A stretch of DNA of 64,000 nt from a virus, in IMG/VR virus record IMGVR_UViG_3300035661_000010. One strand, given 5' to 3'. The translations under genes and the position numbers were made by a program. Of this stretch, positions 34,203 to 45,569 are shown piece by piece. Every line of letters begins with the position of its first letter. Position 1 is the first letter of the stretch. The notes below the pieces were generated by a model. It was given only the letters and a program-made list of their open reading frames with translations, ran no database searches and was not told the origin of the DNA.

Positions 34203-34943
34203 ATGACAATGAGCCAACGAGTGACGTTGTACACGGGCGACTGGATGAAGAACGTGGTGAAAGCGAAGACGCCGGACCAGTTGGTCTCGGGTGACAAAGC
34301 CATCTTCTTGGTCGACGACTTCGTTGGAACGTCCAAGGGAGCCCGGCTCGGGTTCGAGGTCCTCCGGGTCATGGCAACGCTCAGCAGTCTGCACATCTGG
34401 GTGAAACCGTGGATCGACGAGACCATGTGCCTCAAGATCAGATTCGATGCCGTCACGGGCGAAGGCACGTGGATGCGTACCAAGATGATGGATAGTGCGA
34501 ACAAGTTCGAGCGTGCGCTCGATCAGCTCAACGGGCTCGTCGAGAAGCATCCGGATCCCAGGAACATGCAGCTCCACGTCAATGCAGACGCCATCGAGAA
34601 GCTGCTGGACGCCTCGTTCAACTGCGAAGACGAAGAGCCGCCCACCGATCCCAGCCCTTCGACACGTGCGAAAGAGGATTCGAGCGTCGAGCTGCCCGAC
34701 ATCGATCCCGTCGAGACAGAGGTGAAGAGCGACAAGCCGGTCGATATCCTGGACACAAGCGCCGACTTCGACACCTGGATGAAGAACCTCTGCGCTGCGC
34801 TCAACGTGCCGACGCACATGCTCGATGAGGTGCGCAAGTTCGAGTCAGAGGAACCCGGGACGGACGAGGTCCACGGGCCCGCCAAGACCAGCGGTCACGC
34901 TCAGATGCTGTACGATGAGTCGCTGAACAAGCTCGCGAGGTAG
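34203..34943 (+). CDS. hypothetical protein with acidic C-terminal region
   Basis: RBS present, with an extended -10-like TGCTACACT at 34169-34177. Confidence 0.65.
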   Translation: MTMSQRVTLYTGDWMKNVVKAKTPDQLVSGDKAIFLVDDFVGTSKGARLGFEVLRVMATLSSLHIWVKPWIDETMCLKIRFDAVTGEGTWMRTKMMDSANKFERALDQLNGLVEKHPDPRNMQLHVNADAIEKLLDASFNCEDEEPPTDPSPSTRAKEDSSVELPDIDPVETEVKSDKPVDILDTSADFDTWMKNLCAALNVPTHMLDEVRKFESEEPGTDEVHGPAKTSGHAQMLYDESLNKLAR

Positions 34944-34953
34944 ATGGCCTCGC

Positions 34954-35124
34954 GGATAGTAGAGGGGACAGACGGTCGATACCGGAGGTTGGCTTCCTCC
35001 GGCGAGGCACCTGGGATGGTGCGATGGCCCTCGGTGGCAAGGAGGCGGGCCTCGACATGGCCTGTCGCCCCGCTGAACGCTTCGTGGTTCGAATCCACAC
35101 GTCCGTCTGTCCCCTCTTCTGTCC
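34954..35124 (+). ncRNA. candidate structured non-coding RNA with a T-loop
   Basis: A 22-bp closing stem (15 bp perfect, 34961-34975 with 35103-35117) encloses hairpins at 34982-35002, 35007-35022 and 35053-35067, plus GTGG-TTCGAAT-CCAC at 35084-35098. Confidence 0.65.
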
Positions 35125-35208
35125 AGCATTGTCTAGGTGCGTCGCGTTACGGTGCGCCACCGGGTCATGTTGTTGCTCTCTGGTAGGACAAGAAGTAGCG
35201 TTGTCTCA

Positions 35209-35655
35209 ATGGACGGCGAAAACGAGCTAGCAAGCCAGGAAGAGAACCCGGTAGCGAACCCAGTAGCGAAGCAGCGCAAGGTCGCACGAGGCTACAAGCG
35301 CACGTTCAAGTTCAAGTACACGGACCTAGCCAAGCTCCTCGACATGACGCCGGCAGCGGCCAGGAAGGCGGCTCAGAGGGGACGATTCGACCCGAACAGC
35401 CTCCAGAGCATCTTCGAGTTCGCAGCGTCACGGGGCCTTGTGTCCGCACCTACTCCCCAGCCTGTGAACAACGCGGCAGAAGACGTCCGCAAGCACTTGC
35501 GGAACGCAGCCGAGACAATGCTCATGGCGATGAAAGAGGTTGCGGTCGCTATCGAGGCCACCATCGAGGCCGAAGGAAAGAAACCGCCCGTCGAGTCTCT
35601 CGCGCCTTCCATGCTCGCGAAACTGGTCAACAAGAAAACAGGAACGGATCCGTAG
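35209..35655 (+). CDS. putative HTH DNA-binding protein
   Basis: YTDLAKLLDMTPAAARKAAQRGRF resembles an HTH. Confidence 0.5.
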   Translation: MDGENELASQEENPVANPVAKQRKVARGYKRTFKFKYTDLAKLLDMTPAAARKAAQRGRFDPNSLQSIFEFAASRGLVSAPTPQPVNNAAEDVRKHLRNAAETMLMAMKEVAVAIEATIEAEGKKPPVESLAPSMLAKLVNKKTGTDP

Positions 35656-45495: not shown

Positions 45496-45569
45496 CCGTG
45501 CTTAGCTCAGTTGGAAGAGCAGCCGAACTTCAAGTCGGTCTGTCACGGGTTCGAGTCCCGTAGCGCGGT
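45496..45569 (+). tRNA. atypical tRNA with an 8-nt anticodon loop (ACUUCAAG, containing U-UCA)
   Basis: Acceptor CCGTGCT/AGCGCGG, D-arm GCTC-AGTTGGAA-GAGC, anticodon stem GCCGA/TCGGT, T-arm ACGGG-TTCGAGT-CCCGT; no encoded CCA. Confidence 0.85.

What the first reader, a model, noticed from the sequence alone, without database searches (positions are those of the whole stretch)
34954..35124. Unannotated ~170-nt multibranch RNA with a long closing stem and a tRNA-type T-loop
Seen: GGATAGTAGAGGGGACAGACGG pairs with CCGTCTGTCCCCTCTTCTGTCC (15 bp perfect) and encloses at least three GC-rich hairpins plus GTGG-TTCGAAT-CCAC, a canonical T-loop on the + strand. It is not a cloverleaf and fills an intergenic gap. 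Established: bacterial Y RNAs (YrlA) combine a long terminal helix with a tRNA-like module. Inference: this is a Y-like RNA, a tRNA-mimic decoy against host anticodon nucleases, or a new ncRNA class. A miniature inverted-repeat element is an alternative. No Ro60/TROVE gene is seen in this window.
Basis: partly seen in the sequence, partly recalled or inferred. Interest (0 to 1): 0.8.

Follow-up and report, generated by a model that had tools for sequence, protein, structure and literature searches.

The report
Clamped tRNA-like RNA in phage
An uncultured T4-like phage carries a very stably folded 171-base non-coding RNA laid out like an overgrown tRNA; its end stem and T arm copy a bacterial histidine tRNA, it cannot decode, it has no relatives in any database searched, and its job is unknown.

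Summary
Positions 34954-35124 hold the strongest inverted repeat and the most stable 170-nt fold in the 64-kb window. The fold is better on the + strand, where it uses six G-U pairs, and it carries a canonical T arm.

- A 7-bp acceptor stem (34972-78 / 35100-06) abuts the T arm.
- Three non-tRNA arms sit at the D, anticodon and variable positions.
- A leader/trailer clamp lengthens the acceptor helix to about 23 bp.

The 24-nt T-arm/3' acceptor segment differs at two positions from tRNA-His of Brucella, Ochrobactrum and Phyllobacterium. It shares that tRNA's odd U5·U68 mismatch. The inner arms show no tRNA-His similarity.

It is not a tRNA, tmRNA, YrlA/Y RNA or any other Rfam family, not a repeated element, and the overlapping 80-aa ORF is not coding-like. 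The closest known analogue is phage T4 species 1 RNA (rnaC), but a model built from rnaC gives only a weak hit.

I found no homologue, so covariation could not be tested.

My best reading is a stable, tRNA-scaffolded small RNA cut out by tRNA and double-strand RNA nucleases. Its target is unknown.

This scan also flagged the same stretch in an overlapping window.

The parts
34954..35124 (+). Whole element: clamped, expanded tRNA-like RNA (171 nt)
   Evidence: MFE -102.4 kcal/mol, z -6.5. Most stable of 4256 windows. Same fold inside a 381-nt context.
34954..34971 (+). 5' leader strand of the clamp helix; its last base G34971 is position -1 and pairs with C35107 (position 73)
   Evidence: Helices 34954-59/35119-24 and 34961-75/35103-17; inverted repeat I1.
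34972..34978 (+). Acceptor 5' strand, ACGGUCG (positions 1-7)
   Evidence: Pairs with 35100-35106 with one U5·U68 mismatch. 6 of 7 bases match GCGGUCG of Brucella/Ochrobactrum/Phyllobacterium tRNA-His.
34979..34981 (+). Linker AUA (place of tRNA positions 8-9)
   Evidence: Unpaired in the MFE and centroid folds.
34982..35002 (+). H1: arm at the D-arm position; 7-bp perfect stem, 7-nt loop UUGGCUU (contains GG)
   Evidence: No significant sequence similarity to the tRNA-His D arm.
35007..35022 (+). H2: arm at the anticodon-arm position; 5-bp stem, 6-nt loop UGGGAU; no 7-nt anticodon loop is possible
   Evidence: the sequence read directly.
35023..35083 (+). H3: 61-nt composite arm at the variable-arm position; apical 8-bp stem with loop UCGACAU; four G-U pairs
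35084..35098 (+). T arm, GUGG-UUCGAAU-CCAC, with the G53-C61 closing pair. The fifth T-stem pair, C35083·A35099, is a mismatch.
   Evidence: 15 of 17 T-arm bases match the host-type tRNA-His.
35100..35106 (+). Acceptor 3' strand, CGUCCGU (positions 66-72); 7 of 7 bases match the host-type tRNA-His
35107..35124 (+). 3' trailer strand of the clamp helix (C73 first). No CCA is encoded and no U-run follows.
   Evidence: No terminator-like site on the + strand.
34935..34953 (+). Flanking 7-bp hairpin that holds the stop codon (34941-43) of the upstream gene and abuts the element

Best explanation
This is the gene of a non-decoding, tRNA-scaffolded small RNA.

Shown:
- The + strand folds into a five-way junction with the arm order of a class II tRNA.
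- A 7-bp acceptor stem stacks on a canonical T arm.
- The arms in the D, anticodon and variable positions are not tRNA arms.
- A 16-bp leader/trailer extension lengthens the acceptor helix to about 23 bp.
- The acceptor/T module closely matches the tRNA-His of Brucella, Ochrobactrum and Phyllobacterium. That tRNA is of the type without G-1, with U72 (PMC3064791 describes the type). The match includes the unusual U5·U68 mismatch.

Inferred:
- The module was taken from, or copies, a host-type tRNA-His.
- The RNA is made as part of the rightward multi-gene transcript.
- It is cut out by RNase III on the long helix, by RNase P/RNase Z measuring 12 bp from the T-loop elbow, or by both.
- It accumulates as a stable RNA, as phage T4 species 1 RNA (rnaC) does.
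- The tRNA frame gives processing and nuclease resistance. The RNA acts in trans by binding a factor that recognises tRNA. A decoy for a host tRNA-directed enzyme is the most plausible kind of target.

The target is unknown.
For: - Fold statistics and strand asymmetry.
- The T-loop 11-mer occurs exactly once in the window, inside the element and adjacent to the closing helix.
- A scan of 185,579 species' genomes for the T-arm and 3' acceptor pattern gave 26 hits. Twenty-four of them are tRNA-His(GUG) genes of Brucella, Ochrobactrum, Phyllobacterium and allied Hyphomicrobiales.
- In five such genomes the only place within 3 mismatches of the 24-mer is the tRNA-His gene, at 2 mismatches.
- Those tRNAs read GCGGUCG on the 5' strand and so have the same U5·U68 mismatch. 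The 5' strand was not part of the search pattern.
- Phage tRNAs in IMG/VR with the same 3' strand have a normal A5-U68 pair.
- T4 rnaC has the same plan: a 7-bp acceptor with U·U mismatches, non-tRNA arms, and a UUCGAAU T arm at the 3' side. It has no Rfam family.
- The model built from rnaC has its only hit in the 64-kb window on this element.
- The element is not coding and is single-copy.
Against: - There is no homologue, so there is no covariation test. Searches that found nothing:
  - blastn against the cultured-phage collection;
  - IMG/VR pattern scans;
  - a JGI metagenome pattern scan;
  - the single-sequence model in 10 related IMG/VR phages;
  - blastn against 401 Hyphomicrobiales genomes;
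  - the single-sequence model in 5 of those genomes.
- There are no expression data.
- No promoter or terminator of standard type was found.
- The rnaC model hit is weak: 11.6 bits, E 0.48 over the window. It also aligns a different 5' partner, 35031-38.
- The inner arms show no tRNA-His similarity (p 0.15-0.97), so only about 31 nt carry the tRNA-His signal.
- Position 73 is C and position -1 is G, unlike the tRNA-His type it otherwise matches.
- Phage tRNAs of several identities also use the 3' strand CGUCCGU.
- Nothing tests the decoy role.
Confidence: 0.5

Rival explanations
1. It is a cis-acting processing or stability element of the multi-gene mRNA. On this reading it is a tRNA-like punctuation mark, like the t-elements of plant mitochondrial mRNAs (own knowledge), and/or an RNase III site. 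It would separate the upstream gene's message from the downstream one or protect a 3' end, and it would have no function of its own in trans.
For: - It begins 11 nt after the stop codon of gene 34203-34943 and directly follows a hairpin that holds that stop codon.
- No promoter of its own was detected.
- All neighbouring genes are on the same strand.
- A helix of about 23 bp is the size of an RNase III substrate (own knowledge).
Against: A processing site needs neither three further well-formed arms nor a complete T arm plus acceptor. The element is unique among 33 crude gaps of the window, so it is not a general punctuation device of this phage.
Confidence: 0.2
2. It is a Y RNA-like tether: the long helix binds a Ro60/Rsr protein and the tRNA-like part recruits a partner. 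In layout it is closer to Deinococcus Yrn1 than to YrlA.
For: - According to PMC4201824, Yrn1 has the long helix in the acceptor position, a T arm, and an 'anticodon' arm of 5 bp with a 6-nt loop. H2 here has exactly that form.
- GGUCGAUA at the top of the helix loosely resembles GGUCCGA / GNCGAA.
Against: - No Rfam Y RNA, YrlA or other hit at E<=10.
- The motif GNCGAAN0-1G is not met.
- The arm order is opposite to YrlA's.
- No TROVE domain in any ORF of 400 aa or more in the window, and no similarity to solved Ro60 structures for the two nearby large ORFs.
- The scan's notes on the rest of the genome mention no Ro60 (unchecked).
Confidence: 0.07
3. It is a decaying tRNA-His pseudogene with chance or selfish hairpin insertions and no present function.
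For: - Only the acceptor and T arm retain tRNA similarity.
- The T stem has a C·A mismatch.
- There is no anticodon.
- No relatives were found.
Against: - Decay does not produce a 15-bp perfect clamp, a 7-bp perfect H1 and an 8-bp apical H3 stem.
- The fold is the most stable in the window, and the MFE structure makes up 37% of the ensemble.
- Large lytic phages usually purge dead DNA (own knowledge).
Confidence: 0.12
4. It is a DNA-level element: a miniature inverted-repeat transposable element, a replication origin, or a recombination/attachment site overlapping a tRNA 3' end.
For: 25-nt inverted arms. Both strands fold better than shuffles. The 3' part resembles the 3' end of a tRNA gene, as attP sites do.
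Against: - It is single-copy in the window.
- It is absent from 401 Hyphomicrobiales genomes.
- There is no target-site duplication at the flanks.
- Six G-U pairs and the T loop work only on the + strand.
- The 5' acceptor strand is also tRNA-His-like, which an attP core does not need.
- No integrase was seen nearby.
Confidence: 0.05
5. The 80-aa ORF 34944-35186 (its ATG directly follows the upstream stop codon) is a real gene and the structure is incidental.
For: The ORF is open, and TAG|ATG junctions are typical of coupled phage genes.
Against: - Codon score -0.19 per codon; real-gene windows have a 5th percentile of +0.20 and a median of +0.52.
- GC1/2/3 is 0.62/0.66/0.60 against 0.59/0.44/0.72 for genes.
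- No Pfam or PHROG family.
- No homologue, and the ORF is not even present as a called protein in 5.8 billion sequences.
Confidence: 0.02

Closest known systems
Phage T4 species 1 RNA (rnaC), a stable small RNA of the T4 tRNA region of unknown function (PMC3014915)
   Same: - Size: 139 nt, against a core of about 135 nt here.
- A 7-bp acceptor-like stem interrupted by U·U mismatches.
- A T arm with the identical loop UUCGAAU placed last, directly before the 3' acceptor strand.
- Non-tRNA arms in between.
- Not in Rfam.
- Host phage is T4-like.

   Different: - rnaC is a four-way junction with an A-rich linker and a conserved hairpin loop GCGUCAAC. This element is a five-way junction without those motifs.
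- rnaC lies in a tRNA cluster and has no long clamp.
- The rnaC model hits this element only weakly (11.6 bits, E 0.48).
tRNA-His of alphaproteobacteria without G-1 (Brucella/Ochrobactrum/Phyllobacterium type; class described in PMC3064791)
   Same: - Acceptor stem identical at 13 of 14 positions, including U72 and the U5·U68 mismatch.
- T arm identical at 15 of 17 positions.
- It is the only place within 3 mismatches in each of five such genomes.

   Different: - No GUG anticodon and no 7-nt anticodon loop.
- C73 and a paired G-1 instead of A73 and no G-1.
- The D, anticodon and variable regions are unrelated.
- 135 nt instead of 77.
- No CCA is encoded.
Bacterial Y RNAs: YrlA and Deinococcus Yrn1 (PMC4201824)
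   Same: - A long terminal helix plus a tRNA-like module with a T arm.
- Like this element, Yrn1 has the helix in the acceptor position and a 5-bp/6-nt-loop 'anticodon' arm.
- The paper proposes the tRNA-like module as protection from nucleases, or as a binding surface.
   Different: - No Rfam match.
- Arm order is opposite to YrlA's.
- The Ro-binding motif is absent.
- No Ro60 gene within 4 kb or anywhere in the window.

tmRNA
   Same: An acceptor stem plus T arm joined to a large non-tRNA insert; some phages encode tmRNA (own knowledge).
   Different: - ARAGORN finds no tmRNA even at a relaxed threshold, and Rfam gives no hit.
- No G3·U70 pair.
- No plausible tag reading frame.
- Far too small, with no pseudoknots predicted.

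Membership tests
tRNA (Rfam RF00005; ARAGORN) | Scores as a cloverleaf with the covariance model or ARAGORN | tested here: not met
   No RF00005 hit even at E<=10 in 34800-35300. ARAGORN at default settings finds nothing here. Only at an 80% threshold does it give a poor 'tRNA-Ala(ggc)' at 35023-35108, which conflicts with the stable fold.
tRNA (Rfam RF00005; ARAGORN) | 7-bp acceptor stem directly stacked on a T arm with loop UUCGAAU and a G53-C61 pair | tested here: met
   34972-78/35100-06 with one U·U mismatch; T arm 35084-98. The fifth T-stem pair is C·A.
tRNA (Rfam RF00005; ARAGORN) | 5-bp anticodon stem with a 7-nt loop (U33, purine 37) | tested here: not met
   H2 gives a 6-nt loop, or an 8-nt loop if the top pair opens. 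No register gives 7 nt.
tmRNA | Detected by ARAGORN or Rfam; G3·U70; tag reading frame ending in a stop codon | tested here: not met
   Positions 3:70 are G-C. The only in-element stop (UGA 35073-75) closes a frame ending ...GLSPR.
YrlA / bacterial Y RNA | Match to the Rfam Y RNA-type models | tested here: not met
   Nothing but two junk hits at E>5.
YrlA / bacterial Y RNA | Arm order: helix, (V), T, acceptor-like stem-loop, D, helix | tested here: not met
   The T arm is the last arm, directly before the 3' strand of the helix. The definition is from PMC4201824.
YrlA / bacterial Y RNA | GNCGAAN0-1G motif near the 5' end | tested here: not met
   The closest string is GUCGAUAC (34975-82), which fails at the sixth and last positions.
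YrlA / bacterial Y RNA | Encoded within about 4 kb of a Ro60/TROVE gene on the same strand | tested here: not met
   No TROVE hit in any ORF of 400 aa or more in the window. The 451-aa and 485-aa ORFs downstream have no solved-structure relatives. The other 95 kb of the genome could not be read.
T4 rnaC (species 1 RNA) | Significant hit with a covariance model of the family | tested here: inconclusive
   Model R2, built from 7 Tevenvirinae sequences, has its only hit in the window at 35031-35107, + strand. The score is 11.6 bits, E 0.48 (0.005 within 701 nt), driven mostly by the T arm and 3' strand.
T4 rnaC (species 1 RNA) | Conserved hairpin loop GCGUCAAC, A-rich linker, position inside a tRNA cluster | tested here: not met
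   The motifs are absent. The nearest tRNA gene is 10.4 kb away.
Alphaproteobacterial tRNA-His without G-1 (as the source of the acceptor/T module) | Acceptor and T-arm sequence, U72, U5·U68 | tested here: met
Alphaproteobacterial tRNA-His without G-1 (as the source of the acceptor/T module) | A73, no G-1, GUG anticodon, 9-nt D loop with U20a (PMC3064791) | tested here: not met
   C73 pairs with G-1. There is no GUG anticodon loop. The H1 loop is 7 nt.
Miniature inverted-repeat element | Several copies; target-site duplication | tested here: not met
   Single copy, none in 401 Hyphomicrobiales genomes. The flanks ...CCTCGC and AGCATT... share no repeat.

The most novel reading that the evidence does not exclude
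The phage has turned the acceptor/T half of its host's tRNA-His into a clamped scaffold that displays three new arms. The resulting stable RNA would be a new class of phage tRNA mimic that traps a host factor which reads the tRNA elbow and acceptor helix, such as a tRNA-cleaving defence nuclease, a processing enzyme or a synthetase. T4 rnaC, unexplained for 50 years, would be another example of the same strategy.
Probability: 0.18. Interest if true: 0.8.

Novelty: new variant of a known kind. Interest (0 to 1): 0.45.

Why it matters
Phages are known to carry tRNA-like stable RNAs. T4 RNA C and D have had no known function for decades, and YrlA occurs in mycobacteriophages.

This element is an unusually clear case. 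A host-type acceptor/T module can be recognised at the sequence level. It is joined to arms that cannot decode and locked by a long helix.

If it is expressed, it gives a defined RNA with which to ask what such mimics bind. The tRNA-His match also points to a Hyphomicrobiales host for an otherwise hostless 159-kb phage.

The value is limited at present because the element is an orphan and nothing about its expression or partners is known.

Tried and rejected
Searches for homologues, all empty or only chance hits:
- blastn against 50,697 phage records at E 1e-5 and at E 10.
- IMG/VR exact and loop-based patterns.
- JGI metagenome loop pattern, which returned only ordinary tRNAs.
- IMG/VR pattern for the T loop plus 3' acceptor. 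This gave 15 loci: 12 ordinary tRNAs with A5-U68, two copies of one uncalled unit, and one locus cut at its end. None resembled this element.
- Single-sequence model R1 in 10 IMG/VR relatives and in 5 Brucella/Phyllobacterium-type genomes. The weak hits there include the tRNA-His gene itself.
- blastn against 401 Hyphomicrobiales genomes, which gave only short GC-rich chance matches and the tRNA-His 3' end.

Synteny route:
- The upstream protein is an orphan.
- Portal and PurD-like proteins have no close relative in IMG/VR.
- The portal's nearest relatives (62% and 58% identity) are in Logan assemblies.

Other points:
- My first family scan of the downstream gene used coordinates 2 nt off (35211). 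It was redone at 35209 and gave only weak HTH hints.
- No intergenic motif is shared with other gaps.
- I considered that H1 is homologous to the tRNA-His D arm or H2 to its anticodon arm. I rejected this as not significant.
- tmRNA, riboswitch, retron ncRNA (no reverse transcriptase nearby), attP and MITE were considered and rejected, as set out under the rivals and membership tests.

Full report
**Context.** The window is part of an uncultured phage with 58% GC. Almost all genes lie on the + strand, and there is a T4-type portal (Pfam Portal_T4, E 8e-66). The portal's nearest database relatives are only 62% and 58% identical; most others are near 45%. The element lies among small genes without family assignment. 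It sits between a 246-aa orphan gene (34203-34943; only itself among 5.8 billion proteins) and a gene that starts at ATG 35209 or GTG 35137 and has only weak helix-turn-helix hints.

- The arms 34954-34978 and 35100-35124 are the strongest inverted repeat of the window and occur nowhere else in it.
- The + strand folds to -102.4 kcal/mol (z = -6.5), and the MFE equals the centroid and makes up 37% of the ensemble. The - strand reaches only -87.9. The + strand fold uses six G-U pairs.
- After correction for GC content, this is the most stable of 4256 170-nt windows on both strands.
- The same fold appears within a 381-nt context. There a further 7-bp hairpin (34935-34953), holding the upstream stop codon, abuts the element.
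- The T-loop 11-mer GGTTCGAATCC occurs exactly once in 64 kb, here.

**It is not a protein gene.** ORF80 (34944-35186) starts directly after the upstream stop codon, but it scores -0.19 per codon. Windows of real genes have a 5th percentile of +0.20. Its GC by codon position is 0.62/0.66/0.60 against 0.59/0.44/0.72 for genes, and no other frame does better. It has no Pfam or PHROG family. It has no homologue and is not even recorded as a called protein.

**Anatomy.**
- The helix next to the T arm can be read as a 7-bp acceptor stem: A1-U72, C2-G71, G3-C70, G4-C69, U5·U68, C6-G67, G7-C66.
- It abuts a T stem of four Watson-Crick pairs plus a C·A, with loop UUCGAAU closed by G53-C61.
- Between the acceptor and the T arm lie AUA; H1 (7 bp, loop UUGGCUU); CGAG; H2 (5 bp, loop UGGGAU); and H3 (61 nt, apical loop UCGACAU).
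- The arms are not tRNA arms, however, and H2 cannot form a 7-nt loop.
- Beyond position 1 the helix runs on for 16 more pairs, beginning with G-1:C73. No CCA is encoded, and no U-run or standard promoter or terminator is nearby.

**Known families are excluded.**
- Rfam gives nothing at gathering thresholds or at E<=10.
- ARAGORN finds no tRNA or tmRNA at default settings. Only at a relaxed threshold does it give a poor alternative cloverleaf at 35023-35108.
- For YrlA, the defining features in PMC4201824 are arm order T, acceptor-like, D; the motif GNCGAAN0-1G; and a neighbouring Ro60 gene. None is met, and no TROVE domain is in any large ORF of the window.
- One resemblance is worth recording. 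The same paper describes Deinococcus Yrn1 with the long helix in the acceptor position, a T arm, and a 5-bp/6-nt-loop 'anticodon' arm, which is the form of H2. I keep the Y-like reading as a minor rival.

**Origin of the acceptor/T module.**
- A scan of one genome for each of 185,579 species with the T loop, the 3' T stem and the 3' acceptor strand gave 26 hits. Twenty-four are the tRNA-His(GUG) gene of Brucella, Ochrobactrum, Phyllobacterium and allied Hyphomicrobiales. The other two are chance matches without a hairpin.
- In five such genomes the tRNA-His gene is the only place within three mismatches of the 24-mer, at two mismatches (positions 65 and 73).
- The 5' acceptor strand of these tRNAs is GCGGUCG; the element has ACGGUCG. 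Both therefore share the rare U5·U68 mismatch, which the search pattern did not ask for.
- The IMG/VR phage tRNAs with the same 3' strand have A5-U68 and belong to other tRNA identities.
- These bacteria have the tRNA-His type without G-1, with G1·U72 and A73 (PMC3064791). The element keeps U72 but has C73 paired to G-1, and it lacks the GUG anticodon that this type of HisRS requires. Histidine charging by such an enzyme is therefore unlikely (inference).
- The inner arms show no significant similarity to the tRNA-His D or anticodon arms, so only about 31 nt carry the signal.
- I rate a tRNA-His origin or mimicry of the module at roughly 70%.
- It also hints at a Hyphomicrobiales host. That fits the GC content and the Agrobacterium and Rhodobacter phage hits of a glycosyltransferase, but it remains only a hint.

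**Closest known analogue.**
- T4 species 1 RNA (rnaC, 139 nt) folds into the same kind of object. It has a 7-bp acceptor-like stem with U·U mismatches, non-tRNA arms, and a UUCGAAU T arm placed last.
- Seven Tevenvirinae homologues give a structure in which 22 of 44 pairs show compensatory change. The family is not in Rfam, and its function is unknown (PMC3014915).
- A model built from that alignment has its only hit in the whole window on this element. The hit is weak (11.6 bits, E 0.48; 0.005 within 701 nt) and uses another 5' partner.
- I therefore call rnaC an analogue and leave homology open.

**No relatives were found.** blastn against cultured phages, IMG/VR patterns, a JGI metagenome pattern, the single-sequence model in ten IMG/VR relatives and searches of Hyphomicrobiales genomes all failed. 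This is the main weakness of every functional claim here.

**Mechanism.**
- Shown: a single-copy, non-coding, + strand, very stable five-way junction with a host-type tRNA-His acceptor/T module and a long clamp.
- Inferred: it is transcribed with its neighbours and excised. Excision would be by RNase III on the ~23-bp helix, by RNase P/Z measuring 12 bp from the T-loop elbow, or by both. It would then be kept stable by the tRNA frame, as proposed for the tRNA-like module of Y RNAs in PMC4201824 and as seen for T4 rnaC. It would act through binding of a tRNA-recognising factor.
- Rivals: a purely cis-acting processing element (0.2), a decayed tRNA-His (0.12), a Y-like tether (0.07), a DNA-level element (0.05) and ORF80 (0.02).

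**Verdict.** This is a real and unusual tRNA-like RNA candidate, a new variant of the known kind "phage tRNA-like stable RNA". It is an orphan of untested expression and unknown function.

Noticed in passing
window 45496-45569 (+): tRNA gene (Rfam 49.2 bits) with an 8-nt anticodon loop, ACUUCAAG, on a 5-bp stem. ARAGORN reports 'tRNA-???' with anticodon (tc). The scan has already followed this up elsewhere as a possible four-base-codon tRNA.
   Followed up: partly
window 34935-34953 (+): A 7-bp hairpin with loop AGAUG holds the stop codon of gene 34203-34943 and directly abuts the element.
   Followed up: no
L099:1501-1687 (minus strand of the locus; IMG/VR relative G001, 199.6 kb): A 187-nt stretch with two T-loop-like motifs and an acceptor-like stem with a U·U mismatch. 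ARAGORN does not call it a tRNA, but the rnaC model picks it up (12.8 bits). It may be an analogous tRNA-like RNA in a phage of the same broad clade.
   Followed up: no
L106:6254-6274 and L108:203-223 (IMG/VR): An identical unit of about 90 nt in two contigs. It has a GCGGACG...CGTCCGT acceptor and a canonical T arm, but ARAGORN calls no tRNA.
   Followed up: no
L146:1501-1599 (Brucella pseudogrignonensis chromosome 2): The host-type tRNA-His gene has leader and trailer sequences that pair and extend the acceptor helix. The single-sequence model of the phage element picks it up at 17.2 bits.
   Followed up: no
L090:1909-2047 (-) and alignment A3: T4 rnaC and six Tevenvirinae homologues share a structure in which 22 of 44 pairs have compensatory changes, including the acceptor stem (A3-U70 in T4; U4-A69 and C5-G68 in Yersinia phage TG1). 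The family has no Rfam entry.
   Followed up: partly
L097 and L100 (IMG/VR relatives G003, G005): Relatives with about 45% portal identity carry clusters of 17-19 tRNA genes within 3 kb, whereas this 64-kb window has a single tRNA gene.
   Followed up: no
window 35134-35160 (+): In the 381-nt fold, a 9-bp hairpin lies just 3' of the element and is followed by a U-rich stretch (GUUGUUGCUCUCU). It could be a weak terminator, or it could lie inside the downstream gene if that gene starts at GTG 35137. Coordinates are approximate.
   Followed up: no
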